Virus record (IMG/VR): IMGVR_UViG_3300050821_002507 | Source: a virus | Lineage: Duplodnaviria; Heunggongvirae; Uroviricota; Caudoviricetes | Direction: 5' to 3' (one strand) | DNA: 64,000 nt | Shown here: positions 9,316 to 20,722 of the stretch, piece by piece | Layout of the letters: each line of letters begins with the position of its first letter | How positions within the stretch are numbered: position 1 is the stretch's first letter | The notes under the pieces: generated by a model | Seen by the model: only the letters and a program-made list of their open reading frames with translations | What the model was told of the DNA's origin: nothing | The model's database searches: none | Made by a program: the position numbers and the translations under genes

Positions 9316-9322
9316 CGTGTCC

Positions 9323-10935: not shown

Positions 10936-12512
10936 CCACGTACGAAGTCCGCAATGACGGCCGGCGCCGAAGCGTCAAAGCCCACACAATCCAGCATCCC
11001 GGCATCGGTTGGATCCGCGATCGAGAATCCCGTGCTGGTGAATCCAATCACGACGAGCTTTGCATTGATACCCGTCTTGTTCCGATAGTCCTGCAATGCA
11101 ATGACCGGGTGAACTGCGCCCGCCCAACATTCGTTGTCAGTTTGCACGACAAAGGTGTCCACTTTCAGATCGTTACGAAGTGCATACAGCATCGGCAACG
11201 AGCAGTCTGTGCCGCCGCCGTTGATGTCGGACGTTTTCTCCGTGACGGTCGCAAGCGACATCTTGGCTGTGATGCCGAGGTCTCTCATCCCGTGGTCGAA
11301 GGCGAGGACATGCCAGTTATTTTCGGTTCGCATGGTGACCATCGCCATTGCGGCTGAGGCTTCAGCGACCGTCAGAGACGACCCCATGAACGGAGAGCAC
11401 ATGGAACCAGACACATCCAACCCAATTAGGGTACGCTTCCCGGTTGGCTCCACGTTCTGGAACGCCAGATAGAACGCATTGTCCAGCGCGTCGAGGATCG
11501 TCGGCACCGGCTCCCATTTGAGCGCACCTTTCACGCCGTGTCCGCTACGGTAGACTGCCAAAGCTTGGAGCACGTTGAACGGGTGAACACGCGACTTGCG
11601 GATTTCCTCCCCGAGAGACAGGCGGTTTACGACAAGAGCCGTATCGTCACTCAGCGGCTTCAGTGCACCGATGGAAGTCATCTTGCCCAGGTTGCGAATC
11701 AGTGCCGTGAGGCCAAGATTCGGCAGCATGGCGGACCATACCTTGGGATTCGTCGTGGCCTCAGTCGGGATCGCCTCCCATGGGAGGTTGTATTCGCGAA
11801 TCACGGCAAGAAGCTCAGACTCGTCATTGGTCTGCATGGCATAACGGTGGGCCTGAAGAATTCCCGGTACACCGAGAGGATCGAAATCCTTCCCGCAGAT
11901 CCAGTTGTAAAGCGCCGCCTTCTCCGGAGTTCCGTCAGACTTCGGGTGCGCGCTCTGAAGCATACGCTTATGGGTGTAGTTCTCCCGTGCACGGTATTTG
12001 ATGGCTTGATACGCCAGCTTGTCGGCGCTCTTTGATTCGTACCACCTTGCAACGGCCCGCTTGAGCGTGCGGCCCCATCCACGCTTGAGAGCGCGAACGG
12101 TATCAACGAACTGGAACAGGTGAGTCGAGGTGCGGCAGACCAGCGGGAGAGCGTTCAGCGCAAGTCTGCGAACGTTGACATCCGCATGAACGGCACCGAG
12201 AGCCAGCGCAAAGATGGCCGGATCATTCTTTGGTGCGCGGCCGGATTCGGAGATATTCACGATAACTGCCACGGTTCGCTCGGCATCCAAGCCGTAGCAG
12301 CGCTCGACGCACTTCGCGTTCTCGCGGGTGAGTGCCTTGGCGTTCTGATAAAAAGTGTTGGAGTCCGATCCTAGAATCAGGAATCGGTCTAAGCGCGTCC
12401 AGTCAGACACGGCAAAGACGAAGCCCTTCGCGTTGTTGAGGACTTGCCGCTCGTTCAGCGGCTCAGTCTGCGGGATCGGCGCGGTCGCAAGGCGTGCGTA
12501 TCTGGACATCAT
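10932..12512 (-). CDS. rsr: Ro60/Rsr orthologue (TROVE domain + C-terminal vWA/MIDAS)
   Basis: PLNERQVLNNAKGFVFAVSDWTRLDRFLILGSDSNTFY, LTALIRNLGKMT, RVHPFNVLQALAVYRSGHGVKGALKWEP...FQNVEPTGKRTLIGLDVSGSM and GGGTDCSLPMLYA are collinear with human Ro60 motifs. GAGGAGAG RBS before the ATG at 12512. The ORF track extends to a TTG at 12527. Confidence 0.93.
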   Translation of the reverse strand: MMSRYARLATAPIPQTEPLNERQVLNNAKGFVFAVSDWTRLDRFLILGSDSNTFYQNAKALTRENAKCVERCYGLDAERTVAVIVNISESGRAPKNDPAIFALALGAVHADVNVRRLALNALPLVCRTSTHLFQFVDTVRALKRGWGRTLKRAVARWYESKSADKLAYQAIKYRARENYTHKRMLQSAHPKSDGTPEKAALYNWICGKDFDPLGVPGILQAHRYAMQTNDESELLAVIREYNLPWEAIPTEATTNPKVWSAMLPNLGLTALIRNLGKMTSIGALKPLSDDTALVVNRLSLGEEIRKSRVHPFNVLQALAVYRSGHGVKGALKWEPVPTILDALDNAFYLAFQNVEPTGKRTLIGLDVSGSMCSPFMGSSLTVAEASAAMAMVTMRTENNWHVLAFDHGMRDLGITAKMSLATVTEKTSDINGGGTDCSLPMLYALRNDLKVDTFVVQTDNECWAGAVHPVIALQDYRNKTGINAKLVVIGFTSTGFSIADPTDAGMLDCVGFDASAPAVIADFVRG

Positions 12513-12523
12513 TCTCTCCTCTG

Positions 12524-12563
12524 CCAATATCGTTAGAGAACACAGGCTCTACAACGATATTGG
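12524..12563 (-). promoter_or_regulatory. stable imperfect hairpin between the Y-RNA-like element and the rsr RBS (possible processing site; no U-tract)
   Basis: CCAATATCG/CGATATTGG 9-bp stem plus TAGAG/CTCTA inner stem with an 8-nt loop, directly upstream of GAGGAGAG-ATG. Confidence 0.4.
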
Positions 12564-12720
12564 CAGATAGACGGAAACGAATGAGGATCGGTGTTTTGGC
12601 GGCTGCTCTAACCACTGAGCTATTCTAACTTGCGTCAGAAGTTGGATTCGAACCAACGACCCGCTGCTTATGATAACCGAATACCTCCGGGGCTCGCTTC
12701 CTCCTATCTGCCGTTTAACG
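12556..12720 (-). ncRNA. putative Y RNA (YrlA-like): circularly permuted tRNA-like module closed by a long terminal stem
   Basis: On the minus strand the order is terminal stem GGCAGATAG (12704-12712), T-arm CGTTGG-TTCGAAT-CCAACG, acceptor 3' TTCTGAC, loop, acceptor 5' GTTAGAA, D-arm TAGCTCAGTGGTTAGAGC, then GCCGCC and the partner CTATCTGCC (12562-12570). It sits adjacent to rsr on the same strand. Confidence 0.55.
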
Positions 12721-12960: not shown

Positions 12961-13034
12961 TGGCGAAAGTGGAAGGTGTCGAACCCTCGTTTTCGGTTTT
13001 GGAGACCGACGTTCTACCGTTGAACTACACTCCC
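12961..13034 (-). tRNA. tRNA-Trp (anticodon CCA)
   Basis: Manual cloverleaf: GGGAGTG acceptor, D-arm GTTC/AACGGTA/GAAC, anticodon loop CTCCAAA, T-arm GAGGG-TTCGACA-CCTTC, CCA encoded. Confidence 0.7.
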
Positions 13035-13035
13035 G

Positions 13036-13107
13036 TACAGACGGGTGGAGTCGAGCCACAACTTGCGCGCGGTTCACAGCCGGCGCCCCAAGCCCTTGGT
13101 CGTCTGC
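13036..13107 (-). tRNA. tRNA-like element, degenerate (possible His GTG anticodon in an extended bulged stem; abnormal D region)
   Basis: 7-bp acceptor GCAGACG/CGTCTGT, T-arm GTGG-CTCGACT-CCAC, loop CTGTGAA with GTG. The D-arm collapses to the CCAAGGGCTTGG palindrome. It lies between tRNA-Met and tRNA-Trp. Confidence 0.3.
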
Positions 13108-13111
13108 GTAT

Positions 13112-13190
13112 TGGTAGCGGTGGCTGGCTACGATCCAGCGTTCTCCGGTTTATGGGACCGGCGCTTTAGTCCAAGCTAAGCTACACCGCC
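13112..13190 (-). tRNA. tRNA-Met (anticodon CAT) with an unusual T-loop ATCGTAG
   Basis: GGCGGTG acceptor, D-arm GCTT/AAGC, anticodon stem CCGGT/ACCGG with loop CCCATAA, T-arm GCTGG-ATCGTAG-CCAGC, CCA encoded. Confidence 0.6.
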
Positions 13191-13267
13191 ATATTGGCAA
13201 CGGGCGTTGAAAGTCGAATCAACATCCTAAGTTTCAAAGACTTAGTACCTGACCACAGGAACCCGCC

Positions 13268-13510
13268 ATGAGTCGAATTGTCGTATGGAACGAGCCGCTC
13301 TGTCTTGATGAGGGCCATGTGTTAAATTCTGTAGTACGAGCAACCGAGGAAGATATTGTTCACTTGATGCAGCATAATTTCCCAGAAAGAGCTTATTCTT
13401 ACGACGACGCGCTGGACGACTTTATGGTAGTCCATTGGGCGTGGTTTGAGGAAGTGGTGCCTCCTGACGGTACCGCCACGCTCACTACGGAACAGCGCCG
13501 TGAGAAGTGA
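13268..13510 (+). CDS. hypothetical protein
   Basis: 80-aa ORF, ACAGGAACC upstream. Acidic and Trp-rich. Confidence 0.45.
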   Translation: MSRIVVWNEPLCLDEGHVLNSVVRATEEDIVHLMQHNFPERAYSYDDALDDFMVVHWAWFEEVVPPDGTATLTTEQRREK

Positions 13511-13529
13511 ATTAAACCGCGAAACGGTA

Positions 13530-13607
13530 TGGAGCCGCCAGCGGGAATCCAACCCGCGATGTTCGGGAGTGAAGGTCCCGCACCCTTGGCACCCAGGCGA
13601 TGGCGGC
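13530..13607 (-). tRNA. tRNA-Glu-like (anticodon TTC) with C at position 33 and an extra nucleotide between the D and anticodon stems
   Basis: Perfect acceptor GCCGCCA/TGGCGGC, T-arm GCGGG-TTGGATT-CCCGC, anticodon stem CGGGA/TCCCG with loop CCTTCAC, CCA encoded. 78 nt. Confidence 0.45.
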
Positions 13608-13683
13608 AGATTTAGGCCCTTGACTTTCTTAACCGTATAGCATATTTCCCGTTTAGCCAATTCCGGCCATACAGGATTATGCT

Positions 13684-14436
13684 ATGACCAAAAAGACCAA
13701 AACCGCTGAAAATACGCTTGTTACCTTCTTGCTCGACCGCTCCGGATCAATGGGTTCGTGCCGCGAATCAACCATCGAGGCGTTCAACGGCTATATCGAA
13801 TCCCTCCGCACGGCGCCGGTCTCATTCACCTTCCTCCAGTTTGATTCGGAGTCGCTGGATAAGGTCCATTTCGAGAAGCCCATCAAAGATGTCCCGGACC
13901 TCAGCATGGCGACCTACCAGCCACGGGGCGGAACCCCCCTGATCGAGGCGGCAACCAAGACCATCCAGGCGCTCGAAACCGCCCTCAAGGCCAAGACCGA
14001 GAAGCCGAAGGTCGTCGTCTGCATTCAGACTGACGGCGAGGAGAACCAAAGCGGCCGAGAATATACGTGGCAGGCGCTTAAGGATCTCATCGCAGCCAAG
14101 ACCGCCGAAGGCTGGCAGTTCAACTTCATGGGCGCCGGCATCGACGCTTACGACCAAGGATCGAAGATGGGCATCTCGGCGGCGGCAACCATGAGCTACG
14201 ATAGCACCGACAAAGTTGCGACTCGTGCTGCTTTCGCCGCCAGCGGTCACAATACGATGTTGTACGCATCGGGATTTGCTGCATCAACGGATTATTCCGC
14301 ATTGCAGAAAATGGCTTCGGGCGACAAGTTCGATCCCAACCTCAAGATACCCACTCTCAAGCCGGTGAAGGTGTCTTCTTCGGTGAAGCTTGACCTTGGC
14401 GGCAAGAAGTCTAGCGGGCTCGACCTGACACAGTGA
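13684..14436 (+). CDS. von Willebrand factor type A (vWA) domain protein
   Basis: MIDAS residues DRSGSM, GGT and TDGEEN. ATG preceded by AGGATTATGCT. Confidence 0.7.
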   Translation: MTKKTKTAENTLVTFLLDRSGSMGSCRESTIEAFNGYIESLRTAPVSFTFLQFDSESLDKVHFEKPIKDVPDLSMATYQPRGGTPLIEAATKTIQALETALKAKTEKPKVVVCIQTDGEENQSGREYTWQALKDLIAAKTAEGWQFNFMGAGIDAYDQGSKMGISAAATMSYDSTDKVATRAAFAASGHNTMLYASGFAASTDYSALQKMASGDKFDPNLKIPTLKPVKVSSSVKLDLGGKKSSGLDLTQ

Positions 14437-14702
14437 CCAGACGCGACCGCTACGACTCTGAGTTCGGTGCCTCGGTGAGCCAAGCGCTTGCCGAGGCAAA
14501 GATCAATCAGGCCGAACTCGCCGTGCGATCCGGAATGTCGCCGTCATACCTCAATCAGACCATGACCGGGAGAAAGCATATCCCAACCAAGTGGATCGAC
14601 GTTGTTGCGGAATCTCTCGGTCTACAAGATGCACAGCGAAAGCGGCTGCACCTCGCCGCCGCAAAGGATGCCGGGTACGATATCGACTTGACGAAGGAAT
14701 GA
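14433..14702 (+). CDS. XRE-family HTH DNA-binding protein
   Basis: INQAELAVRSGMSPSYLNQTMTGRK is a classic HTH_XRE. GTG start overlapping the vWA gene stop. Confidence 0.6.
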   Translation: MTRRDRYDSEFGASVSQALAEAKINQAELAVRSGMSPSYLNQTMTGRKHIPTKWIDVVAESLGLQDAQRKRLHLAAAKDAGYDIDLTKE

Positions 14703-14776
14703 TGGAGCGGAGTGAGAGAATCAGACTCTCGTCTTTGGTTTGGAAGACCACTGCTCTGTCATTGAGCTAACCCCGC
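14703..14776 (-). tRNA. tRNA-Gly (anticodon TCC), non-canonical D-loop (AATGACA) and T-loop (TCTGATT)
   Basis: Acceptor GCGGGGT/ACTCCGC, anticodon loop CTTCCAA, T-arm GAGAG-TCTGATT-CTCTC, CCA encoded. Confidence 0.55.
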
Positions 14777-14777
14777 G

Positions 14778-14865
14778 TGGCGGAAGCAGGAGGATTTGAA
14801 CCTCCGGTACCGTTAGGTACTTCGGTTTAGCAAACCGATGCAATAGGCCACTCTGCCATGCTTCC
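14778..14865 (-). tRNA. tRNA-Ser (anticodon GCT), class II
   Basis: GGAAGCA/TGCTTCC acceptor, 3-bp D-stem, loop TTGCTAA, long variable hairpin GTACC..GGTAC, T-arm GGAGG-TTCAAAT-CCTCC, CCA encoded. Confidence 0.8.
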
Positions 14866-14870
14866 GTTAG

Positions 14871-14947
14871 TGGCGATCCCGGCAAGACTCTAACTTGCGA
14901 CAACCGGTTTAGGAAACCAGTGCTCTATACATCTGAGCTACGGGACC
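14871..14947 (-). tRNA. tRNA-Arg (anticodon CCT)
   Basis: Acceptor GGTCCCG/CGGGATC, anticodon loop TTCCTAA, T-arm GCAAG-TTAGAGT-CTTGC (A56), D-loop lacks GG. CCA encoded. Confidence 0.6.
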
Positions 14948-14952
14948 GTGAT

Positions 14953-15028
14953 TGGAGACCCAGGCGTGAATCGAACACGCGACCTCTTGCTTAGAAGGCA
15001 AAGACTCTTTCCACTGAGTTACTGGGCC
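14953..15028 (-). tRNA. tRNA-Arg (anticodon TCT)
   Basis: Canonical: GGCCCAG acceptor, D-arm ACTC/AGTGGAAA/GAGT, loop CTTCTAA, T-arm GCGTG-TTCGATT-CACGC, CCA encoded. Confidence 0.8.
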
Positions 15029-15029
15029 G

Positions 15030-15278
15030 TTACCAAAAGTAGTTATGCGGCTTCTTGCTAACCGGCCAAGTCGCGTTGTCCGCGTCGATCTTGCCCAGCA
15101 AAACCGCTCTAGTCGTCTCCATGGCGCGGCGACGATGCGGTCTACGGTGAAACACGATGTCCCACCACGCAGGCCAGTTGTTCAGCCAGCGATACTCGTT
15201 GCCAAACTCTTTTGCACGCCATTTGTCGAAGCGATTGCCGCGCACTCTCGTCCGCGACCGCTTGCGTTTGTGGTTCAT
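15030..15278 (-). CDS. hypothetical basic Trp-rich protein embedded in the tRNA array
   Basis: 82 aa, MNHKRKRSRTRVRGNRFDKWRAKEFGNEYRWLNNWPAWWD. Its stop abuts the tRNA-Arg 5' end. AAGGTG close to the ATG. Confidence 0.35.
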   Translation of the reverse strand: MNHKRKRSRTRVRGNRFDKWRAKEFGNEYRWLNNWPAWWDIVFHRRPHRRRAMETTRAVLLGKIDADNATWPVSKKPHNYFW

Positions 15279-15334
15279 GACACCTTAGCTCCATGTTGGT
15301 CACTAACGTGTCATGGTCGGATCCTTTCAAGGGT

Positions 15335-15410
15335 TGGAGTAGCAGGCCGGTGCCTACCCGGCTCAATAGCGGTTTTGCAGACCGCCGCGTTCACGTTTCG
15401 CCACTGCTAC
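15335..15410 (-). tRNA. tRNA-Cys-like (anticodon GCA) with a non-canonical T-loop (GTAGGCA) and a D-loop lacking GG
   Basis: Perfect 7-bp acceptor GTAGCAG/CTGCTAC, canonical anticodon arm GCGGT-CTGCAAA-ACCGC, T-stem GCCGG/CCGGC, CCA encoded. 76 nt. Confidence 0.45.
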
Positions 15411-15540
15411 GTTAAGGCTCGGCCAAGGGTCCCTTCGGTCTTTTCCCCGGCTGGGGTAAAGCACTAGGCGTTTCCGGTTTCCCTATGCGCGCCACGCCAC
15501 GGCGCCGGCTCTGCCTGGGTGGTTGATAGCATATCGTGAA
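15411..15540 (-). other. GC-rich structured non-coding segment of unknown function inside the tRNA array
   Basis: Multiple hairpins (CCCCAGCCGGGG, GGCGCCGTGGCGTGGCGCGC). No ORF and no tRNA fold found. Lies between tRNA-Gln and the tRNA-Cys-like gene. Confidence 0.3.
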
Positions 15541-15616
15541 TGGCAGGGGAAGAGAGGATCGAACTCCCGACATCGGCGTCCAGAGCGCCGCGCTACTACC
15601 GCTGAGCTATTCCCCA
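15541..15616 (-). tRNA. tRNA-Gln (anticodon CTG)
   Basis: Acceptor TGGGGAA/TTCCCCT (U1-U72 terminal mismatch), D-arm GCTC/AGCGGTAG, anticodon stem CGGCG/CGCCG with loop CTCTGGA, T-arm GGGAG-TTCGATC-CTCTC, CCA encoded. Confidence 0.65.
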
Positions 15617-15623
15617 TCAAAGA

Positions 15624-15698
15624 TGGTCGGGGCACGGCGATTCGAACGCCGGACCTCACGCTTCCAAAGCGCGAACTCTACCGCTGAGCTATACCCCG
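15624..15698 (-). tRNA. tRNA-Pro (anticodon TGG)
   Basis: Canonical: CGGGGTA acceptor, D-arm GCTC/AGCGGTA/GAGT, loop TTTGGAA, T-arm CGGCG-TTCGAAT-CGCCG, CCA encoded. Confidence 0.8.
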
Positions 15699-15834
15699 TT
15701 GATTCCGTCTAAATTATGTGAGACACTAACCGCGTCCAAATCTCTATCTCAAACGCAAGGAGTACACGCCCCAAAAACGCACCGCAAGTCCTAGTCAGGG
15801 CGGCCGGGCGCGAACCACGTCCGGCCGCAATAAT

Positions 15835-15852
15835 GTGGCGATCCCGGCAAGA
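15835..15852 (+). repeat. 18-nt direct repeat of the 3' end of tRNA-Arg(CCT) (gtggcgatcccggcaaga); first copy at 14869..14886
   Basis: Exact 18-mer present twice about 950 bp apart. The second copy is not part of a tRNA fold. Confidence 0.6.
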
Positions 15853-15863
15853 GGGCTACCGAA

Positions 15864-16055
15864 ATGAGCAACAAGATTACTACCGGACCAGAAATTGCGT
15901 TGGCGCTTGCGATGCGGGCTGGACTGGAAGGCGTTGCCTTCTCCCAGGTGTCTATGGGACACTGGACCCCAGAGTTTTATGCAGAGAGATGTCGCGTCAT
16001 TAAGGATAAATGGCGACCCACCGAGGAATCGAACCCCGAACCATCAGATTCGTAG
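15864..16055 (+). CDS. small ORF of doubtful validity (its 3' end overlaps tRNA-Arg(ACG) on the opposite strand)
   Basis: 63-aa ORF with an AAGAGGG RBS. 45-nt overlap with the tRNA at 16011..16087. Confidence 0.2.
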   Translation: MSNKITTGPEIALALAMRAGLEGVAFSQVSMGHWTPEFYAERCRVIKDKWRPTEESNPEPSDS

Positions 16056-16087
16056 TCTGGCGCTCTGTCCATTTGAGCTAGTGGGCC
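16011..16087 (-). tRNA. tRNA-Arg (anticodon ACG)
   Basis: Canonical: GGCCCAC acceptor, D-arm GCTC/AAATGGACA/GAGC, loop CTACGAA, T-arm CGGGG-TTCGATT-CCTCG, CCA encoded. Confidence 0.8.
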
Positions 16088-16091
16088 GTAA

Positions 16092-16169
16092 TGGTACGGT
16101 CGGCGGGCTACGATCCCGCGTTTCCCGGATGAGGGCCGGGGTTCCTTGTCCGATCTAGAAGACGACCGC
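16092..16169 (-). tRNA. tRNA-Glu-like (anticodon CTC) with C33 and the same architecture as 13530..13607
   Basis: Acceptor GCGGTCG/CGACCGT, anticodon stem CCCGG/CCGGG with loop CCCTCAT, T-arm GCGGG-ATCGTAG-CCCGC, CCA encoded. Confidence 0.45.
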
Positions 16170-16176
16170 GTAAATG

Positions 16177-16260
16177 CTGAAGGGGCAGGATTCGAACCTG
16201 CGACGGGCTTTCGCCAACTGATTAACAATCAGACCCCTGCTACCGCTCGGGTACCCTCCA
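16177..16260 (-). tRNA. class II-type tRNA (long variable arm with a GAAA tetraloop), anticodon ambiguous (GTT in the best register)
   Basis: Acceptor TGGAGGG/CCCTTCA, 3-bp D-stem, palindromic anticodon region CTGATTGTTAATCAG, T-arm GCAGG-TTCGAAT-CCTGC. CCA not encoded. Confidence 0.45.
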
Positions 16261-16269
16261 TCGCATTTG

Positions 16270-16341
16270 TGGTGGAGAAACGGAGAGTTGAACTCCGGAC
16301 GGCAGCCGTGCAAAGGGTGCCTGTGGCCCGCCACTTTCCCC
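16270..16341 (-). tRNA. tRNA-like element: good acceptor stem and T-arm but no D/anticodon cloverleaf (one long arm instead)
   Basis: Acceptor GGGGAAA/TTTCTCC, T-arm CGGAG-TTCAACT-CTCCG, CCA encoded. The body folds as GGCGG...CTGCC enclosing 22 nt. Confidence 0.3.
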
Positions 16342-16468
16342 GAATCAAACAGCCGACCGGTGCTGCGAGACACCGGCCGGCTTGGAAAGCCAATCGAGTT
16401 TACCTGCGCCGGCTTGTTCCGTAGCCGTGACCGTATTGGAACAGCAGGATTGCCCGAAAGGCTACTCT

Positions 16469-16792
16469 TTACGCCGGGTTGGCGGTAGTCGCCGTGGTGA
16501 GGTCGGACGTGGCCTTCTCGACCTTCGCCGCCAGGGCATCAACTGCCGGCTGGATGTCCGCTGGTGCCGCTGCCTTGAGGGCTGCGATGTCGGCGGAAAG
16601 TCCCGTCAGATCCGTTACAGCCGCAGCAACAGCGGCGGTGAGTGCATCAACGTCAGTGGTAAGCTTGCTGAGATCAGCCATGATGGTGTCAACCTTTCGA
16701 GTGAGAGCGTGCAATAGGGCATTGTTGCGGGTGGCGTAGAACTCGATACGCTCAAGCCTCGCGTCGTCTACGTCTGTACCGAACCATCCCAT
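16469..16792 (-). CDS. hypothetical Ala-rich coiled-coil protein
   Basis: 108 aa from the internal Met (MGWFGTDVDD...). The upstream 160 nt of the longer ORF look non-coding. TATATAAC immediately upstream. Confidence 0.45.
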   Translation of the reverse strand: MGWFGTDVDDARLERIEFYATRNNALLHALTRKVDTIMADLSKLTTDVDALTAAVAAAVTDLTGLSADIAALKAAAPADIQPAVDALAAKVEKATSDLTTATTANPA

Positions 16793-16989
16793 GGGGTTAT
16801 ATACTCGCTTTTTGTGACGGTTGCAAGACGCGAAATGGTGCCTCGGCGCCGTTTCGAGCGGCGATCTTCCGTGCTTCAAACGGACGTGTGGAACCACCAT
16901 CACCACCGAGGCGAGCAGCATCCCGGTAACGATCCGGGTCCTACACGTTGGCAACGTGTCGTGCTACCTTTAGCACCAATGCTGCATAT

Positions 16990-17073
16990 TGGTCGGCAAC
17001 CCGCGAATCGAACGCGGCATGTCAAAGACGCAGGTTTTACAGACCCGCTCAGTCACCAGACTTGGCGTTGCCG
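16990..17073 (-). tRNA. tRNA-Tyr (anticodon GTA), class II, compact shifted D-arm
   Basis: Perfect acceptor CGGCAAC/GTTGCCG, anticodon stem GCGGGT/ACCTGC with loop CTGTAAA, variable hairpin GTC-TTTG-GAC, T-arm CCGCG-TTCGATT-CGCGG, CCA encoded. Confidence 0.55.
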
Positions 17074-17273
17074 TAAGTATGCACGGGGCCGTAGTGTCCT
17101 CACCACCGTACCGTGCCGCCATCGTTATCCCTGATGGCTCGGGAAAAGTGCGTCGGCTTGTACTCCGTCGCGTGCGCCGATTTACATCCGATCTGGCGCA
17201 GAATTTAGCGGCCGGTCTGAGGTCTAGCCTCAGTCCCTCGCCCCGGCCGGCGAGGTACGACGCGCGTCGTAGG

Positions 17274-17546
17274 TCATTCTGGCCACACTCCTAATCCCAT
17301 GTCCTGAAGCCCTTGAAGTAACTCGGCCTCGGTCATGTAAGATGGCGGTGAAGTGTGGGCCTGATCCACATGCCTTTGCGGGGCACCAGCGGGTTTCGAA
17401 TCCGTGTCAGGGGCCTCCCTGATTACTTCACCAATCTCTCCTTGGCAGCAATAATCAAATCTATGGCCGCCGCAGGTAAGGCAGGGAAGGACCGCGCCGT
17501 TTAGGCGCAGCATAGTCCCCATGCCATGGCATGTTTCGCAAATCAT
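17274..17546 (-). CDS. Cys-rich small protein (zinc-ribbon-like)
   Basis: CETCHGMG...CLTCGG...CC pairs of CxxC. Overlaps the upstream HNH gene by 4 nt. Confidence 0.45.
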   Translation of the reverse strand: MICETCHGMGTMLRLNGAVLPCLTCGGHRFDYCCQGEIGEVIREAPDTDSKPAGAPQRHVDQAHTSPPSYMTEAELLQGLQDMGLGVWPE

Positions 17547-18034
17547 GGGTTAACCCATCCCCAAATATTCCCACGCCGAATCAACGACACTGTAGCGTGA
17601 TGCACGCCAAATAATTCTGCTATTTCTGTATTCATCTTGCCGTCTTTAATTAGTGATTTGATGACAACAACTTGAGACTGGAGCAATTTGCTGCGTGGAT
17701 TTTTTTCTCCGTTCTGAAAACTATTATTCAAGCTTGCCCGACCCTTAGCATATGCTTCAAGTATATTGTCGCTACAGGTTCCCTCGCGCAGGTGCTCTGG
17801 ATTGATGCAAGGCGGATTATCGCATGAATGAAGAACCATAAGGCTAACATCATCGACAGAAATGCCGCGATTGACGGCGTAAGAAACTCTATGGGTCAAG
17901 TAGTCTTTCCCACCAAACTTTATCTTTCCGTAGCCGCTTTTGTTTCTACCTCCCGACCATTCCCAGCAGCCATTGGGAGCAATAGCGATCTTGGAGGCGA
18001 GATAGGTTCTGAGGTCTTTAATCTTTCTTGGCAT
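17543..18034 (-). CDS. HNH homing endonuclease (HNH_3/AP2-like) with a C-terminal HTH
   Basis: CWEWSGGRNKSGYGKI...HRVSY...HSCDNPPCINPEHL, and IAELFGVHHATVSLIRRG as the HTH. Confidence 0.7.
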   Translation of the reverse strand: MPRKIKDLRTYLASKIAIAPNGCWEWSGGRNKSGYGKIKFGGKDYLTHRVSYAVNRGISVDDVSLMVLHSCDNPPCINPEHLREGTCSDNILEAYAKGRASLNNSFQNGEKNPRSKLLQSQVVVIKSLIKDGKMNTEIAELFGVHHATVSLIRRGNIWGWVNP

Positions 18035-18050
18035 GAAACCTCATATTATC

Positions 18051-18138
18051 TGGCGGAACCGAGGTGATTCGAACACCTGATACCTTGCGGTATGCCGCCT
18101 TTCCAGGGCGGTGCCTTCAGCCTCTCGGCCACGGTTCC
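18051..18138 (-). tRNA. tRNA-Ser (anticodon GGA), class II
   Basis: GGAACCG/CGGTTCC acceptor, D-arm GCC/GAGAGGCTGAA/GGC, anticodon stem CCGCC/GGCGG with loop CTGGAAA, variable hairpin CATACCGCAAGGTATC, T-arm AGGTG-TTCGAAT-CACCT, CCA encoded. Confidence 0.8.
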
Positions 18139-18177
18139 TTTGATTCGCAGAGTATCAGTTTGTGCCTCGCAGTCAAG

Positions 18178-18261
18178 TGGCGGAGAGCGATGGAGTCGAG
18201 CCATCAACCTTGCGGTTGGCCTGGGTTTCAGGTCCAGTTCGCGCCCCGCGCGCCGCTCTCC
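18178..18261 (-). tRNA. tRNA-Ser-like paralogue with a GC-rich aberrant D region and an ambiguous anticodon loop (TGA in one register); T-loop CTCGACT
   Basis: Perfect acceptor GGAGAGC/GCTCTCC, variable arm AACCGCAAGGTT (as in the Ser(GGA) gene), T-arm GATGG-CTCGACT-CCATC, CCA encoded. Confidence 0.35.
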
Positions 18262-18265
18262 CTAT

Positions 18266-18340
18266 TGGCGACCTCCGCAGGATTCGAACCTGCATCCTCA
18301 AGATTCGGAATCTTGTGCTCATCCATTGAGCTAGGAGGCC
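18266..18340 (-). tRNA. tRNA-Arg (anticodon CCG)
   Basis: Canonical: GGCCTCC acceptor, D-arm GCTC/AATGGAT/GAGC, anticodon stem CAAGA/TCTTG with loop TTCCGAA, T-arm GCAGG-TTCGAAT-CCTGC, CCA encoded. Confidence 0.8.
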
Positions 18341-18582
18341 TTTGACTGAGAGCGACCCAGCGGCGCTTTTTGTGGTACGCCGCATTCCGTGTTGACGGTA
18401 ACCAACACCCAGCGCAATGCTGTCCCCCTGATCCAGCCACGAACCTCTACTTCTAATCTCTTCTCAGCTTCGCATCTCGTCTCTGGCAACGGTGGCTCAA
18501 AATCAGTGCGGACCCATTCAGAGTCGGTGTGTGAATTGCGATATTCGTACTCGAAATGTCTTCCGGCGATCTCGCGCATATG

Positions 18583-18960
18583 CTATGCTCCGTGCTGCTC
18601 GAAAAATCGTGATCTGAACGGCTGGTCCGCCCTAGTAGCCCGATTCGGATAGTATGCACCCATTCCCGATGTCCAGGCAATCAAACTGTCGTCAGCCAGG
18701 ATGACTTTGTCCATTGCCCGCGTCATAGCCAACGCAAGGTTGTAAGTGTCAGGACTGCACGGATTGATGTATAACACCCAGATGTCGATGGGGACCGTGA
18801 TCGGGATTTTGATCGCTGCCGCCTTAAAGGCCTCCACAAGCGCCTCCCGGTACTTCTGGATGACCTTATAATGCTGCCGGTAGTGCGGAGCCCCATGGAT
18901 GTATAACCGAAGCCTGGGCAACGGCTCGTCGGATGGATGGTATTCTGCGATGATGCGCAT
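18583..18960 (-). CDS. RusA-like Holliday junction resolvase
   Basis: PDTYNLALAMTRAMDKVILADDSLI parallels the RusA segment DLDNLQKAAFDAL...WLDDAQV. Size 125 aa. Confidence 0.55.
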   Translation of the reverse strand: MRIIAEYHPSDEPLPRLRLYIHGAPHYRQHYKVIQKYREALVEAFKAAAIKIPITVPIDIWVLYINPCSPDTYNLALAMTRAMDKVILADDSLIAWTSGMGAYYPNRATRADQPFRSRFFEQHGA

Positions 18961-18980
18961 GGTCGTATCCTATCATGGGG

Positions 18981-19070
18981 TGGTCGGCGCTACGTGGATC
19001 GAACACGTCCGTCTACGGTAATCAGCCGCTCCGGGTTTATAAGGCCCAGCCGCACCCAGTGCTAGCGCCG
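18981..19070 (-). tRNA. 90-nt tRNA-like element with a 22-nt variable region, 3-nt D-loop and a 9-nt or mismatched anticodon loop (CCTTATAAA)
   Basis: Perfect acceptor CGGCGCT/AGCGCCG, T-arm ACGTG-TTCGATC-CACGT, CCA encoded. The body is not a standard cloverleaf. Confidence 0.3.
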
Positions 19071-19097
19071 CTCTGAAAAACGTGATACCAATATTAG

Positions 19098-19493
19098 ATG
19101 CACAACCAAGAAAATGACGACTGGTTTTTGGCCGCAGTCTCTAGCGGTCACATTTCAGTATCCGAAGATGGGAAAGTTTTTAACCACAAGACCAATAGAT
19201 ACATTGGCGCAGTTGGCAGCGGTAGATATCCAAAAATTTCTCTCTCTGTTGGGCGAAAAGAAATTCGCCATATGCAAATACACCGTCTAGTGTGGTTGGT
19301 TTATCGTGGTAAAATTTCACAAGAAGTTGAAATTAACCATAAGGATACCAACACCAACAATCCATCTCTGCTAAACCTTGAATTAATTACCCCTAGCGGC
19401 AATAGATTGCACGCTATTGCAAACGGCCGTCCCGGATATCTTTTCCAAAAAGGAAACAAATCATCACGCAAAACGAAAGTCATTGACAAATAA
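19098..19493 (+). CDS. HNH homing endonuclease in an AT-rich island
   Basis: YPKISL...IHRLVWLVYRG...EINHKDTNTNNPSLLNLELIT (HNH_3). Confidence 0.65.
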   Translation: MHNQENDDWFLAAVSSGHISVSEDGKVFNHKTNRYIGAVGSGRYPKISLSVGRKEIRHMQIHRLVWLVYRGKISQEVEINHKDTNTNNPSLLNLELITPSGNRLHAIANGRPGYLFQKGNKSSRKTKVIDK

Positions 19494-19497
19494 AAAG

Positions 19498-19574
19498 TGG
19501 TCGGCGCGGCAGGCTTCGATCCTGCGACAACCCGGCTCCGGACCGGGGACTCTACCAGACTGAGCTACGCGCCG
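19498..19574 (-). tRNA. tRNA-Pro (anticodon CGG) with C33 and T-loop ATCGAAG
   Basis: Perfect acceptor CGGCGCG/CGCGCCG, D-arm GCTC/AGTCTGGTA/GAGT, anticodon stem CCCGG/CCGGG with loop TCCGGAG, CCA encoded. Confidence 0.55.
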
Positions 19575-19578
19575 TAAG

Positions 19579-19652
19579 TGGCGGTCCTAGGGGGTATCGA
19601 TCCCCCGTCGATCGGTTGACAACCGAGTACTCTACCTTTGAGCTATAGGACC
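19579..19652 (-). tRNA. tRNA-Asp (anticodon GTC)
   Basis: Acceptor GGTCCTA/TAGGACC, D-arm GCTC/AAAGGTA/GAGT, anticodon loop TTGTCAA, T-arm GGGGG-ATCGATA-CCCCC, CCA encoded. Confidence 0.65.
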
Positions 19653-19653
19653 G

Positions 19654-19732
19654 TATGGCCGGGGAGAATCGAACTCCCATGGTTTCCCACGGCGACCTCA
19701 ACGCCGCGCGTCTGCCGTTCCGCCACAGCCAC
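19654..19732 (-). tRNA. tRNA-Leu (anticodon GAG), class II; CCA not encoded
   Basis: Acceptor GTGGCTG/CGGCCAT (two G-U pairs), D-arm GCG/GAACGGCAGA/CGC, anticodon stem CGGCG/CGCCG with loop TTGAGGT, variable TGG-GAAA-CCA, T-arm GGGAG-TTCGATT-CTCCC. Confidence 0.6.
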
Positions 19733-19740
19733 GTAAAACT

Positions 19741-19815
19741 TGGAGGGTGCTAGGTGAATCGAACACCTGACAAGAGGGTTAAGAAGCCTCTGTTCTTCCA
19801 CTGAACTAAGCACCC
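19741..19815 (-). tRNA. tRNA-Lys (anticodon CTT)
   Basis: Acceptor GGGTGCT/AGCACCC, D-arm GTTC/AGTGGAA/GAAC, anticodon loop TTCTTAA, T-arm AGGTG-TTCGATT-CACCT, CCA encoded. Confidence 0.75.
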
Positions 19816-19948
19816 GAGGATTCCGGAAGTTCTGCCCTTCTTGCGACGCGGGTTAAAAAGCCGGCCCAGAGACTACTCTGATTTACGCTCGGAATCCGAA
19901 TGGACCCCGAACCGTTTAAGTGGATCGCTCATGTTGTTTACTCCATAT

Positions 19949-20023
19949 TGGTGCAAGCGGGAGGTACTGCCCCTCCTATCAGACGCTCATCAGGCGCCGT
20001 CTTCGCTTCTCAGACTCGCTTGC
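19949..20023 (-). tRNA. tRNA-Ile-like (anticodon GAT) with a non-canonical T-loop (GGCAGTA) and a D-loop lacking GG
   Basis: Perfect acceptor GCAAGCG/CGCTTGC, anticodon stem GGCGC/GCGTC with loop CTGATGA, T-stem GGAGG/CCTCC, CCA encoded. Confidence 0.4.
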
Positions 20024-20076
20024 GGTGAAATGGTGCTTCCGATACCTTGGAGAGGCATGACCTTCGCCATGTCGCG

Positions 20077-20149
20077 GCGACGGTGAGGGTCACGATCCCC
20101 CGACATCCTGCGTGTAAAACAGGCGCTCTCCCAACTGAGCTAACCGCCC
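20077..20149 (-). tRNA. tRNA-Val (anticodon TAC); G1-G72 terminal mismatch, CCA not encoded
   Basis: 5' half GGGCGGT-TA-GCTC-AGTTGGGA-GAGC is canonical. Anticodon loop TTTACAC, T-arm GGGGG-ATCGTGA-CCCTC. Confidence 0.55.
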
Positions 20150-20155
20150 ATGAAG

Positions 20156-20233
20156 TGGTGCCGCAGGCGGGTGACGATCACGCGCGGAACCGTTTTTAGG
20201 ACGGATCCCTCTGCCAACCTGGGGTACTGCGGC
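20156..20233 (-). tRNA. class I-sized tRNA with anticodon loop CCTAAAA (anticodon TAA, Leu UUA/UUG) and C33
   Basis: Perfect acceptor GCCGCAG/CTGCGGC, D-arm CCCC/AGGTTGGCAGA/GGG, T-arm GCGTG-ATCGTCA-CCCGC (one mismatch), CCA encoded. Confidence 0.45.
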
Positions 20234-20237
20234 GTAT

Positions 20238-20315
20238 TGGTGCCCAACCGGGAGATCGAATCCCGACACACCGGATTTTGAATCCAGTCGCTTTGCCTGT
20301 TTTGCGTAGTTGGGC
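20238..20315 (-). tRNA. tRNA-Leu (anticodon CAA) with a short variable loop (class I-like)
   Basis: Perfect acceptor GCCCAAC/GTTGGGC, anticodon stem CTGGA/TCCGG with loop TTCAAAA, variable TGTGT, T-arm CGGGA-TTCGATC-TCCCG, CCA encoded. Confidence 0.6.
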
Positions 20316-20320
20316 GTGAG

Positions 20321-20398
20321 TGGTAGCCGACCCCGGTCTCGAACCGGGACTGGACGGAGTCTGGATCCGTTCCCTCTTCCAAATTGGGGTAGTCGGCC
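20321..20398 (-). tRNA. tRNA-Leu (anticodon CAG), class I-like, with C33
   Basis: Acceptor GGCCGAC/GTCGGCT, D-arm CCCC/AATTTGGAAGA/GGG, anticodon stem ACGGA/TCCGT with loop TCCAGAC, T-arm CCCGG-TTCGAGA-CCGGG, CCA encoded. Confidence 0.5.
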
Positions 20399-20404
20399 GT
20401 TGAA

Positions 20405-20477
20405 TGGTGCCACCAGCAGGTTCGAATCTGCATCCCCCTCATTACCAGTGAAGGACTCTACTTTGAGCTATGGCGGC
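20405..20477 (-). tRNA. tRNA-Thr (anticodon GGT)
   Basis: Acceptor GCCGCCA/TGGTGGC, D-arm GCTC/GAGT, anticodon stem CTTCA/TGAGG with loop CTGGTAA, T-arm GCAG-ATTCGAAC-CTGC, CCA encoded. Confidence 0.65.
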
Positions 20478-20482
20478 AAACT

Positions 20483-20557
20483 TGGTTCCGAGTAGACGAA
20501 TCGAACGCCTGCACCCAGTTTACAAAACTGGACCTCTGCCACTGAGGATAACCCGGA
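20483..20557 (-). tRNA. tRNA-Thr (anticodon TGT)
   Basis: Acceptor TCCGGGT/ACTCGGA, anticodon stem CCAGT/ACTGG with loop TTTGTAA, T-arm AGGCG-TTCGATT-CGTCT, CCA encoded. Confidence 0.65.
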
Positions 20558-20648
20558 TCAAAGAGTCTTCGCGGGGCGGGGCACGACTGCCGCTGTTTTT
20601 CTCGCTGGGCGAAACGTGGCTTGGGGCGCGTGGCGACCCACCGCGAAT

Positions 20649-20722
20649 TGGAGCCATCAGGTTGATTTGAACAACCATTGCCACCGTACGAAGGGGGTCT
20701 CCTACCATTGGAGGATGACGGC
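20649..20722 (-). tRNA. tRNA-Thr (anticodon CGT)
   Basis: Acceptor GCCGTCA/TGATGGC, D-arm CTCC/AATGGTA/GGAG, anticodon loop TTCGTAC, T-arm GGTTG-TTCAAAT-CAACC, CCA encoded. Confidence 0.7.

What the first reader, a model, noticed from the sequence alone, without database searches (positions are those of the whole stretch)
13530..20398. Recurrent non-canonical anticodon loops (C instead of the near-universal U33) in five tRNAs
Five tRNAs have loops CCTTCAC, CCCTCAT, TCCGGAG, CCTAAAA and TCCAGAC (Glu-TTC, Glu-CTC, Pro-CGG, Leu-TAA?, Leu-CAG). All have otherwise good acceptor and T stems and an encoded CCA. Five independent genes with the same deviation is unlikely to be decay. Altered anticodon loops are a documented route by which phage tRNAs escape host anticodon nucleases (PrrC/RloC/VapC-type), so these may be nuclease-resistant replacements.
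Basis: partly seen in the sequence, partly recalled or inferred. Interest (0 to 1): 0.75.

Follow-up and report, generated by a model that had tools for sequence, protein, structure and literature searches.

The report
Phage tRNAs with C33 anticodon loops
Seven of about 32 transfer-RNA genes in this bacteriophage have a C next to the anticodon where almost all cellular tRNAs have a U. In my samples this is a recurrent feature of viral tRNA genes (about 5% of them, none of 255 bacterial ones), and whether it serves a purpose, such as escaping host nucleases, is not shown.

Summary
ARAGORN reproduces all five loops at the stated coordinates. The Rfam tRNA model aligns Pro-CGG and Glu-TTC in the standard register with C at position 33, and no alternative 7-nt loop register places a U there.

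That makes 7 of about 32 tRNAs in the array of a 79-kb metagenomic phage contig, probably infecting an alphaproteobacterium.

These genes are not decaying. Their stems are intact, positional orthologues in two related phage lineages keep full pairing through many two-sided changes, and C33 genes depart from other invariant positions no more than their U33 neighbours.

C33 is labile. Orthologues of Glu-CTC, Leu-CAG and Leu-TAA carry U33, and each lineage has C33 in different isoacceptors.

C33 is also not special to this window. It occurs in 4.7% of 569 tRNAs from unrelated viral contigs and in cultured phages, against 0 of 255 bacterial tRNAs.

The nuclease-escape reading is untested. Two anticodon nucleases assayed with U33C substrates cut them normally, and C33 shows no isoacceptor preference.

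Best reading: these are working phage tRNAs in which position 33 has relaxed from U to pyrimidine. Any adaptive value is unproven.

The parts
12961..20722 (-). tRNA gene array. It holds 28 genes at default ARAGORN settings. Gly-TCC (14703-14776) is added by Rfam, and Ser-TGA, Ile-TAT (18981-19070) and Cys-GCA (15335-15410) appear at threshold -ps95, for about 32 in all. HNH and RusA-like ORFs are interspersed.
13530..13607 (-). tRNA-Glu(TTC), 78 nt, loop CCTTCAC, C33 at 13574, T-loop TTGGATT (G56), 3' end TCCA
   Evidence: ARAGORN. Rfam tRNA 38.2 bits with C in the U33 column. Coordinate.
16092..16169 (-). tRNA-Glu(CTC), 78 nt, loop CCCTCAT, C33 at 16134, T-loop ATCGTAG (A54/U58), Glu-like D arm, 3' end ACCA. 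Orthologues in L002 and L086 have U33.
   Evidence: No Rfam tRNA hit. The MFE fold contains the same anticodon hairpin.
19498..19574 (-). tRNA-Pro(CGG), 77 nt, loop TCCGGAG (C33 at 19541, A37 instead of G37), T-loop ATCGAAG
   Evidence: Rfam 48.1 bits with alignment.
20156..20233 (-). tRNA-Leu(TAA), 78 nt, class-I shape (short variable loop), loop CCTAAAA, C33 at 20199, mismatches in the T and anticodon stems. It is the weakest of the set. The L086 orthologue has CTTAAAA.
   Evidence: No Rfam hit.
20321..20398 (-). tRNA-Leu(CAG), 78 nt, class-I shape, loop TCCAGAC, C33 at 20364, canonical T-loop TTCGAGA. The L086 orthologue has TTCAGAC.
   Evidence: No Rfam hit. The MFE fold contains the same hairpin.
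13112..13190 (-). tRNA-Met(CAT), 79 nt, loop CCCATAA, C33 at 13155. Its 79-nt orthologue in L002 has the identical loop while 8 of 17 stem pairs differ on both sides.
   Evidence: Rfam 52.2 bits with alignment.
18178..18261 (-). Probable tRNA-Ser(TGA), 84 nt, loop CCTGAAA, C33 at 18231, A31.C39 mismatch. This seventh C33 gene has lower confidence.
   Evidence: ARAGORN -ps95. Rfam tRNA-Sec-like 32.6 bits, below threshold. Same place in the gene order as Ser-TGA of L002 and L086. The MFE fold prefers a different hairpin.
18583..18960 (-). RusA-like ORF (125 aa) embedded in the array. It is 92% identical in lineage L002 and 76% in L086, and served as the marker used to recover the homologous arrays.

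Best explanation
These are structurally maintained, probably working, phage-encoded tRNA genes inside one co-oriented array of about 32 genes. In this phage lineage position 33 behaves as 'pyrimidine' rather than 'invariant U'.

U-to-C transitions at position 33 arise repeatedly and independently in different isoacceptors, and some persist. C33 is the mildest possible substitution: natural C33 tRNAs decode normally in eukaryotes. Phage tRNAs, which supplement rather than replace the host set, are held to the universal tRNA consensus less strictly than cellular tRNAs.

The window sits at the high end (about 20%) of a pattern seen across viral tRNA genes (about 5% C33, against none in the bacterial sample). 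The same genes also depart at other 'universal' positions (U8, T54, A58).

Shown here: the sequence facts, the recurrence, the lability and the intact structure. Inferred: that the genes are expressed, charged and used, and that C33 is near-neutral rather than beneficial.
For: - Structure is kept. The cloverleaves are intact. Orthologue pairs show 7-11 two-sided changes in 17 stem pairs with none broken.
- C33 genes are no more deviant elsewhere than U33 genes.
- Position 33 toggles U<->C in 8 of 44 orthologue comparisons. Positions 32 and 38 change in 17 and 16, and position 37 in 1.
- C33 falls in different isoacceptors in the three lineages.
- Viral baseline: 27 C33 among 569 tRNAs. Deviations at U8, T54 and A58 are similar (10.7%, 5.6%, 4.9%), against about 0% in 138 bacterial tRNAs.
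- At least 22 of the 29 viral C33 tRNAs checked score 49-71 bits with the Rfam tRNA model.
- C33 shows no isoacceptor bias and rises modestly with GC, from 2.6% to 10%.
- Cultured phages carry annotated C33 tRNAs: DSS3P8 has 3 of 30, and there are Stenotrophomonas A1432 Ile, Acinetobacter phi1_092033 Ile and Enterobacter F1M1E Ser.
- Yeast tRNA-Leu(GAG) naturally has C33 and works as well as its U33 version (PMC13492127).
- The C33 genes sit 4-8 nt from canonical neighbours in tandem runs and encode CCA.
- Their codons are used: GAA+GAG make up 4.6% of codons and CCG is the top Pro codon.
Against: - U33 is absent from none of 255 bacterial tRNAs. C33 therefore has some cost in cells, and phage populations are large enough to purge mild costs.
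- C33 is conserved, not merely tolerated, in at least two families. Met-CAT(79 nt) has an identical loop in the window and L002 despite 8 compensatory stem changes. A tRNA-Ile(GAT) family with CCGATAA recurs across unrelated contigs and cultured phages with compensatory stem changes.
- The rate in this window exceeds the general viral rate (p=0.0006-0.002).
- A close relative carries a PNKP plus two RNA ligases where the window has its array. This suggests the lineage does meet tRNA-cleaving defences.
- Three of the five genes fail the Rfam tRNA model, so function is not assured.
- There are no expression or charging data.
Confidence: 0.5

Rival explanations
1. Nuclease evasion. C33 makes the phage tRNA a poor substrate for a host anticodon-loop nuclease, most plausibly one that cuts the 33p34 bond or reads U33. 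The phage can then keep translating when host tRNAs are cleaved.
For: - Phage tRNAs that escape tRNA nucleases through a few substitutions are documented: T5 tRNA-Lys against AriB (PMC12409363) and the mycobacteriophage hypothesis (PMC10264068).
- PrrC and RloC cut immediately 3' of U33 (PMC2610378).
- Relative L005 has a PNKP plus two RNA ligases, a T4-like tRNA repair set, in the position of the array.
- C33 is virus-enriched, recurrent and in some families conserved.
- Lineage-specific turnover of which tRNAs carry C33 is what an arms race would give.
Against: - U33C does not protect against the two nucleases where it was assayed: gamma-toxin on CCUUCAC, and colicin E5.
- Known escape mutations are at positions 32, 38, 39 and 41.
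- C33 shows no isoacceptor preference, whereas known anticodon nucleases are isoacceptor-specific.
- Orthologues with U33 persist in sister lineages.
- Host and host nucleases are unknown.
Confidence: 0.2
2. Avoidance of host anticodon-loop modification. C33 acts as an anti-determinant for host tRNA-modifying enzymes, so the phage tRNA stays unmodified. This could matter for modification-dependent nucleases or for decoding speed.
For: - E. coli TsaBCDE cannot put t6A37 on a U33C initiator tRNA (PMC8887486).
- Viral tRNAs also depart at other modified positions (U8, T54, A58).
- The Pro and Leu-CAG tRNAs here have A37 instead of the m1G37 site.
Against: - C33 is no more frequent in ANN-decoding (t6A-type) tRNAs than in others, 5.2% vs 4.4%, p=0.7.
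- No modification data exist for any of these tRNAs.
Confidence: 0.1
3. Decay. Some or all of the C33 genes are tRNA pseudogenes on their way out, and C33 is one of several lesions.
For: - Glu-CTC, Leu-TAA and Leu-CAG get no Rfam tRNA hit.
- Leu-TAA has stem mismatches and reads a rare codon: TTA is 4% of Leu codons.
- Four of the six C33 genes also have A54.
- The three short 'Leu' tRNAs lack the long variable arm.
Against: - Stems are intact in six of the seven genes.
- Orthologue pairs show many compensatory changes.
- C33 genes carry no excess of other deviations.
- Position 33 is never a purine.
- The C33 alleles of lineage L002 are identical in six independent assemblies.
- U33 neighbours (Phe, Ala, Tyr) also fail Rfam, so that failure reflects the lineage's odd D and T arms, not C33.
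Confidence: 0.12
4. Mis-registration. The true anticodon loop is shifted, so U33 is present and the anticodons are different.
For: Opening the last stem pair of Pro-CGG or Leu-CAG gives a 9-nt loop with T second.
Against: - No 7-nt alternative exists.
- Covariance-model alignments of Pro-CGG, Glu-TTC and Met-CAT put C in the U33 column with posterior about 1.
- The orthologous loops are identical except at position 33.
Confidence: 0.02

Closest known systems
Phage T5 tRNA-Lys/Thr/Asn that escape the PARIS nuclease AriB, and the mycobacteriophage cluster C1 tRNAs proposed to escape VapC-type nucleases
   Same: Phage-encoded tRNA arrays whose members differ from the standard or host sequence at a few anticodon-arm positions. 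HNH endonuclease genes are interspersed in the array, as in T5.
   Different: The documented or proposed escape changes lie at positions 32, 38, 39 and 41 and are tied to a named nuclease and isoacceptor. Here the change is at position 33, in many isoacceptors, with no known nuclease or host. T5 itself has 0 of 22 C33.
Natural C33 tRNAs of eukaryotes: initiator tRNA-Met of animals and plants, and yeast tRNA-Leu(GAG)
   Same: C replaces U33 in a tRNA that is nevertheless functional (PMC8887486, PMC13492127). The window's Met-CAT shares the loop CCCAUAA and A54 with eukaryotic initiators.
   Different: Those are single, fixed exceptions in cellular genomes. Here 7 of about 32 genes of a bacterial virus are affected, and the state flips between sister lineages. 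The Met-CAT lacks the other initiator marks: three G-C pairs in the anticodon stem, A1:U72 and A60.
tRNA genes of cultured phages that carry C33, seen here: Roseobacter phage DSS3P8 (Val-GAC, Lys-CTT, Pro-GGG), Stenotrophomonas phage A1432 and Acinetobacter phage phi1_092033 (Ile-GAT, CCGATAA), Enterobacter phage vB_ExiM_F1M1E (Ser-GCT)
   Same: The same deviation in annotated phage tRNAs that are otherwise canonical. DSS3P8 also has an alphaproteobacterial host and a short 'Leu' tRNA.
   Different: They carry one to three such genes per genome rather than seven. None of the searched literature comments on it.
T4-type tRNA repair (Pnk + Rnl1) as the counter to the anticodon nuclease PrrC
   Same: Relative L005 encodes a PNKP and two RNA ligases directly after the primase, where the window has its tRNA array. 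Both would be answers to tRNA cleavage.
   Different: The window itself has only a stand-alone PNKP-type phosphatase domain (25605-26213) and no ligase. The link to C33 is inference only.

Membership tests
Canonical tRNA (Rfam RF00005 cloverleaf) | 7-bp acceptor stem, discriminator base and 3' CCA | tested here: met
   All seven C33 genes have 7 acceptor pairs (some G.U) and an encoded CCA.
Canonical tRNA (Rfam RF00005 cloverleaf) | 5-bp anticodon stem closing a 7-nt loop, purine at position 37 | tested here: met
   Five contiguous pairs in five genes. Leu-TAA has 4 pairs plus a T.T mismatch, and Ser-TGA has an A.C mismatch. A37 is present in all.
Canonical tRNA (Rfam RF00005 cloverleaf) | U at position 33 | tested here: not met
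   C in all seven. Covariance-model alignments confirm the column for Pro-CGG, Glu-TTC and Met-CAT.
Canonical tRNA (Rfam RF00005 cloverleaf) | T-loop G53-T54-T55-C56-R57-A58 | tested here: not met
   Only Leu-CAG is canonical. Leu-TAA, Pro-CGG, Glu-CTC and Met-CAT have A54, Glu-TTC has G56, and Ser-TGA has C54.
Canonical tRNA (Rfam RF00005 cloverleaf) | Score at or above the Rfam gathering threshold (29 bits) | tested here: inconclusive
   Met 52.2, Pro-CGG 48.1 and Glu-TTC 38.2 pass. Glu-CTC, Leu-TAA and Leu-CAG give no hit. Ser-TGA matches only the tRNA-Sec model, at 32.6 bits (threshold 47).
Canonical tRNA (Rfam RF00005 cloverleaf) | Expressed, processed and aminoacylated | not testable with these tools
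   The contig comes from a metagenome only. The promoter and terminator scan is at chance level.
Nuclease-evading phage tRNA (T5/AriB, mycobacteriophage/VapC type) | The host encodes a nuclease that cleaves the cognate host isoacceptor | not testable with these tools
   Host unknown. It is suggested to be an alphaproteobacterium only by the GcrA gene and the names of primase relatives.
Nuclease-evading phage tRNA (T5/AriB, mycobacteriophage/VapC type) | The substitution lies in the nuclease's recognition or cleavage site and confers resistance | not testable with these tools
   No assay was possible. In the literature, U33C leaves cleavage by gamma-toxin and colicin E5 unchanged. PrrC and RloC cut at 33p34, but C33 has not been tested with them.
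Nuclease-evading phage tRNA (T5/AriB, mycobacteriophage/VapC type) | The change is tied to particular targeted isoacceptors | tested here: not met
   C33 sits in different isoacceptors in each of three lineages and is evenly spread over anticodon classes in 662 viral tRNAs.
Eukaryote-type initiator tRNA (C33, A54, A60, A1:U72, three G-C pairs in the anticodon stem) | The full set of initiator marks, tested for Met-CAT 13112-13190 | tested here: not met
   C33 and A54 are present. Pair 1-72 is G.U, position 60 is G, and the anticodon stem is CCGGU/ACCGG, with two G-C pairs in the relevant positions.
tRNA pseudogene | Broken stems or an excess of lost invariant positions relative to neighbouring genes | tested here: not met
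   Other deviations per gene: 1.36 for C33 genes vs 1.42 for U33 genes, p=0.92. No stem pairs are broken in the orthologue comparisons for Glu-CTC, Leu-CAG and Met-CAT. Leu-TAA is the one borderline case.

The most novel reading that the evidence does not exclude
U33-to-C33 is a virus-specific, repeatedly selected tRNA adaptation. By removing the U that host anticodon-loop enzymes read or cut next to, it gives phage tRNAs of any isoacceptor a generic shield while keeping them usable by the ribosome. The enzymes in question would be nucleases acting at the 33p34 bond such as PrrC/RloC relatives, or modification enzymes such as TsaBCDE whose products other nucleases need. The same logic may explain the parallel viral departures at U8, T54 and A58.
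Probability: 0.2. Interest if true: 0.75.

Novelty: new variant of a known kind. Interest (0 to 1): 0.5.

Why it matters
U33 is treated as one of the few truly invariant tRNA nucleotides. One phage carries C33 in a fifth of its tRNAs. In my samples about 5% of viral tRNA genes do so, against none of 255 bacterial ones.

This means either that the constraint on U33 is much weaker than cellular genomes suggest, or that viruses gain something from breaking it.

Either answer bears on the open question of why phages carry tRNAs and on the recent idea that they are nuclease-proof spares. The question is directly testable, because cultured phages with tractable hosts (Acinetobacter, Stenotrophomonas, Ruegeria) carry the same variant.

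It also matters practically. Three of the five genes are invisible to the Rfam tRNA model, so phage tRNA counts made with such models are underestimates.

Tried and rejected
- **Close relatives in public phage sets.** There is no near match in INPHARED. The IMG/VR scans with the vWA protein, with the Glu-TTC anticodon arm and with the conserved Leu-GAG core found nothing.
- **Distant primase relatives.** Eighty IMG/VR loci with primase at 50% identity or less mostly lack tRNA arrays. The useful relatives came from the primase and RusA-like proteins through the look-up of encoding contigs.
- **Alternative loop registers.** None found.
- **C33 as a marker of generally degraded genes.** Rejected.
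- **C33 concentrated in t6A-type (ANN-decoding) tRNAs or in any anticodon class.** Rejected.
- **C33 explained by GC content alone.** Only partly: the rate is 2.6% to 10% across GC bins, with 5% in the lowest bin.
- **Promoter and terminator scan of the array.** At chance level, so it says nothing about expression.
- **MFE folding and z-scores.** Weak (-0.7 to -2.2) and uninformative. Four MFE folds keep the ARAGORN anticodon hairpin and three choose other folds, as is common for unmodified tRNA sequences.
- **Literature search for prior description of C33 in phage tRNAs.** Nothing found.
- **Host identification.** Not achieved. I spent the single genome-contig scan on a bacterial baseline instead.

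Full report
**What is there.** The window is part of a 78.8-kb ENA metagenome contig (ERZ27253551 k141_1148552). It encodes virion, head, tail-fibre and DNA-ejection proteins, a helicase-primase pair, SSB, an ERF recombinase, an MT-A70 methylase and a GcrA homologue. It is therefore a phage. The GcrA gene and the names attached to the nearest primase relatives (Pseudolabrys, Enterovirga, Mesorhizobium, Agrobacterium) suggest an alphaproteobacterial host, but the host is not established. No cultured phage is close to it.

On the minus strand between 12961 and 20722 lies a tRNA array. ARAGORN genes at default settings. Rfam adds Gly-TCC. A slightly relaxed ARAGORN threshold adds Ser-TGA, Ile-TAT and Cys-GCA, for about 32 genes.

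**Check of the observation.** The C33 bases are at 13574, 16134, 19541, 20199 and 20364.

The Rfam tRNA model aligns Pro-CGG (48.1 bits), Glu-TTC (38.2 bits) and Met-CAT (52.2 bits) in the standard register with C in the U33 column. An exhaustive look for other 7-nt loops with T second and at least 3 closing pairs finds none.

Met-CAT at 13112-13190 has loop CCCATAA. A probable Ser-TGA at 18178-18261 has loop CCTGAAA. The Ser-TGA is supported by synteny with Ser-TGA in relatives and by a sub-threshold Rfam hit, and is less certain.

The statement that the genes are 'otherwise good' needs qualifying:
- Glu-CTC, Leu-TAA and Leu-CAG are not detected by the Rfam tRNA model even in 86-253-nt searches at E<=10.
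- Leu-TAA has stem mismatches.
- Three of the five have A54 T-loops, and Glu-TTC has G56.
- U33 neighbours (Phe, Ala, Tyr) fail Rfam too. The failure therefore reflects the lineage's unusual D and T arms rather than C33.

**Relatives.** Two other lineages with the same gene order were recovered through the primase and through a RusA-like ORF embedded in the array (92% and 76% identical).
- L002 and five near-identical contigs from other samples: 23 tRNAs.
- L086: 20 tRNAs on a 9-kb contig.

C33 by lineage:
- Window: Leu-CAG, Leu-TAA, Pro-CGG, Glu-CTC, Glu-TTC, Met-CAT and Ser-TGA.
- L002: Ile-GAT, Gly-GCC, Asn-GTT and the 79-nt Met-CAT.
- L086: Val-TAC only.

The positional orthologues of the window's Glu-CTC (both lineages), Leu-CAG and Leu-TAA (L086) carry U33. 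Their loops are otherwise identical or nearly so, for example TCCAGAC vs TTCAGAC and CCTAAAA vs CTTAAAA.

Over 44 orthologue comparisons the loop differs 17 times at position 32, 16 times at 38, 8 times at 33 (always U<->C) and once at 37. The stems of these orthologues differ on both sides at 7-11 of 17 pairs with none broken for Glu-CTC, Leu-CAG and Met-CAT. Met-CAT keeps the identical loop CCCATAA through 8 such changes.

So the genes are under selection for tRNA shape, position 33 is semi-free within pyrimidines, and in at least one gene C33 is conserved.

**Is it more than chance, and is it special to this window?** I scored, with the same tool, tRNAs neighbouring a generic bait (GTAGCTCAGTTGGTAGAGC) in 120 IMG/VR loci and in 120 loci from GTDB bacterial genomes.

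| Sample | n | U33 | C33 | A33 | G33 |
|---|---|---|---|---|---|
| Bacterial, non-bait | 138 | 138 | 0 | 0 | 0 |
| Bacterial, all | 255 | 255 | 0 | 0 | 0 |
| Viral, non-bait | 569 | 537 | 27 (4.7%, 95% CI 3.2-6.8%) | 3 | 2 |

The viral and bacterial samples differ with Fisher p=0.005.

At least 22 of the 29 viral C33 tRNAs checked score 49-71 bits with the Rfam tRNA model, so they are not artefacts of the caller. Twelve of 39 viral loci with five or more tRNAs have at least one C33, and a few have 18-38%. The rate rises modestly with GC, from 2.6% to 10%.

The window's 6/29 or 7/32 exceeds the overall viral rate (p=0.002 or 0.0006). It is only marginally above GC-matched viral contigs (p=0.07 or 0.04).

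Cultured phages show the variant too:
- Roseobacter phage DSS3P8: 3 of 30 (Val-GAC, Lys-CTT, Pro-GGG, all annotated as tRNAs in GenBank).
- Stenotrophomonas phage A1432 and Acinetobacter phage phi1_092033: tRNA-Ile with CCGATAA.
- Enterobacter phage vB_ExiM_F1M1E: Ser-GCT with CCGCTAA.
- T5: 0 of 22.

C33 is thus a virus-enriched, recurrent variant, and this window is a strong example of it rather than a unique case.

**Decay or design?** C33 genes have no more departures at other invariant positions than U33 genes: 0.48 vs 0.56 in the viral sample, and 1.36 vs 1.42 in this lineage, p=0.92. That argues against pseudogenes.

Departures from the universal consensus, by sample:

| Position | Bacterial (n=138) | Viral (n=569) | This lineage (n=71) |
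|---|---|---|---|
| U8 | 0.7% | 10.7% | 11% |
| U33 | 0% | 5.6% | 15.5% |
| T54 | 0% | 5.6% | 32% |
| A58 | 0% | 4.9% | 17% |

In the viral sample G53, T55, C56, R37 and R57 stay at 0-1.8%. So U33 is one of a small set of 'universal' positions that viral tRNAs relax.

C33 is evenly spread over anticodon classes (4.1-5.2% for each N36) and is no higher in ANN decoders. Asn-GTT C33 genes in different contigs are only 62-68% alike, and each has a closer U33 relative, so they arose independently. By contrast, an Ile-GAT family keeps CCGATAA across contigs and cultured phages with compensatory stem changes.

**Mechanism.** From the literature held here:
- Yeast tRNA-Leu(GAG) naturally has C33, and converting it to U33 makes almost no difference (PMC13492127).
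- Animal and plant initiator tRNAs have C33 (PMC8887486). A pyrimidine at 33 is therefore compatible with decoding.
- On the nuclease idea, the general concept is published (PMC10264068) and demonstrated for T5 tRNA-Lys against AriB, through changes at positions 39 and 41 (PMC12409363).
- Position 33 has been assayed with two anticodon nucleases, and C33 did not protect in either. Gamma-toxin cuts the U33C stem-loop of tRNA-Glu, whose loop CCUUCAC is identical to the window's Glu-TTC, like wild type (PMC2275089). Colicin E5 needs only a pyrimidine there (PMC1635277).
- PrrC and RloC cut the bond just 3' of U33 (PMC2610378). I found no data on C33 for them.
- C33 does have one demonstrated biochemical effect in bacteria: E. 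coli TsaBCDE cannot add t6A37 to a U33C initiator tRNA. The absence of enrichment in t6A-type tRNAs argues that this is not the general reason.

Circumstantial support that this phage group meets tRNA-cleaving defences comes from relative L005 (primase 69% identical). It carries a PNKP and two RNA ligases directly after the primase, where the window has its array.

**Verdict.** I rank the explanations as follows:
- 0.5: working phage tRNAs in which U33 has relaxed to Y33 under the looser or different constraints that apply to viral tRNAs.
- 0.2: evasion of a host nuclease.
- 0.1: evasion of host modification.
- 0.12: partial decay, mainly Leu-TAA.
- 0.02: mis-registration.

Shown: the sequence facts, recurrence, lability, intact structure and virus-versus-bacterium contrast. 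Inferred: expression (tight tandem spacing with canonical neighbours and encoded CCA), use (their codons are common: Glu 4.6% of codons, CCG the top Pro codon) and near-neutrality.

Limits: the baselines are samples of a few hundred genes. The viral sample contains at least one eukaryotic-virus-like contig (a eukaryote-type initiator in L209). The host is unknown, and there are no expression data.

Noticed in passing
window 10932-12527 (-) and 12602-12664 (-): A Ro60/Rsr homologue (TROVE plus Ro60 vWA domains, E 1e-42 to 1e-66) lies directly beside the tRNA array. A sub-threshold YrlA (Y RNA-like) hit follows it (30.7 bits, threshold 69), and ARAGORN at a low threshold sees a tRNA-like element at 12632-12712. 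This looks like a phage-borne Ro/Y-RNA module.
   Followed up: partly
window tRNAs at 20156-20233, 20076-20149, 19579-19652, 19498-19574, 16913-16985, 16092-16169, 13112-13190: Seven of 28 tRNAs have A54 instead of T54 (T-loops ATCG...), often with U58, which swaps the 54-58 pair. Non-T54 is 32% in the three related lineages, 5.6% in the viral sample and 0 of 138 in bacteria. Four of six C33 genes also have A54, against 3 of 22 others.
   Followed up: partly
window 20321-20398, 20238-20315, 20156-20233; L086 4371-4609; L094 17638-17713: Three 78-nt 'Leu' tRNAs (CAG, CAA, TAA) have a short variable loop (class-I shape) and A73, unlike the long-arm tRNA-Leu of bacteria. The same is seen in L086 (79, 76 and 73 nt) and in Roseobacter phage DSS3P8 (Leu-CAA, 76 nt). 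Whether LeuRS charges them is unknown.
   Followed up: no
L005 12585-15256: A related phage (primase 69% identical) has a full PNKP (phosphatase plus kinase), an RNA_ligase-family gene and a T4 Rnl1-family ligase right after the primase. It has a single tRNA-Pro there instead of a large array. This is a T4-like tRNA repair cassette.
   Followed up: no
window 19498-19574, 15624-15698, 20321-20398: Both Pro tRNAs (TCCGGAG, TTTGGAA) and Leu-CAG (TCCAGAC) have A37 where bacterial counterparts carry the m1G37 site. DSS3P8 Pro tRNAs also have A37, while T5 Pro has G37.
   Followed up: no
window 14703-14776, 18178-18261, 18981-19070, 15335-15410: Four tRNAs are missed by default ARAGORN: Gly-TCC (Rfam 57.8 bits), Ser-TGA, a 90-nt Ile-TAT and Cys-GCA. 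Conversely, 10 of the 28 ARAGORN genes are missed by Rfam at its gathering threshold with default filters. Either tool alone under-counts this array.
   Followed up: partly
viral baseline loci L096-L215: U8 is replaced in 10.7% of viral tRNAs against 0.7% of bacterial ones, the largest single departure. Also in these arrays: an amber-suppressor-type tRNA (CTA) with C33 in L157, a eukaryote-type initiator tRNA in L209, a ROOL RNA in L173, and a HEARO RNA plus an HDV-like ribozyme in L153.
   Followed up: no
window 25605-26213 (-): A stand-alone PNKP-type HAD phosphatase domain (E 6.5e-26) with no kinase or ligase partner in the window.
   Followed up: no
window 9317-10165 (+): A transposase-like ORF (282 aa; HTH_7 weak and DDE_Tnp_IS1 faint in the precomputed hits) sits inside the phage contig, just upstream of the Ro60 gene.
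   Followed up: no
window 46264-49365 (-): A 1033-aa protein has a C-terminal 'InPase' domain (E 1.9e-46). The domain matches large virion-associated and DarB-like phage proteins in PHROGs.
   Followed up: no
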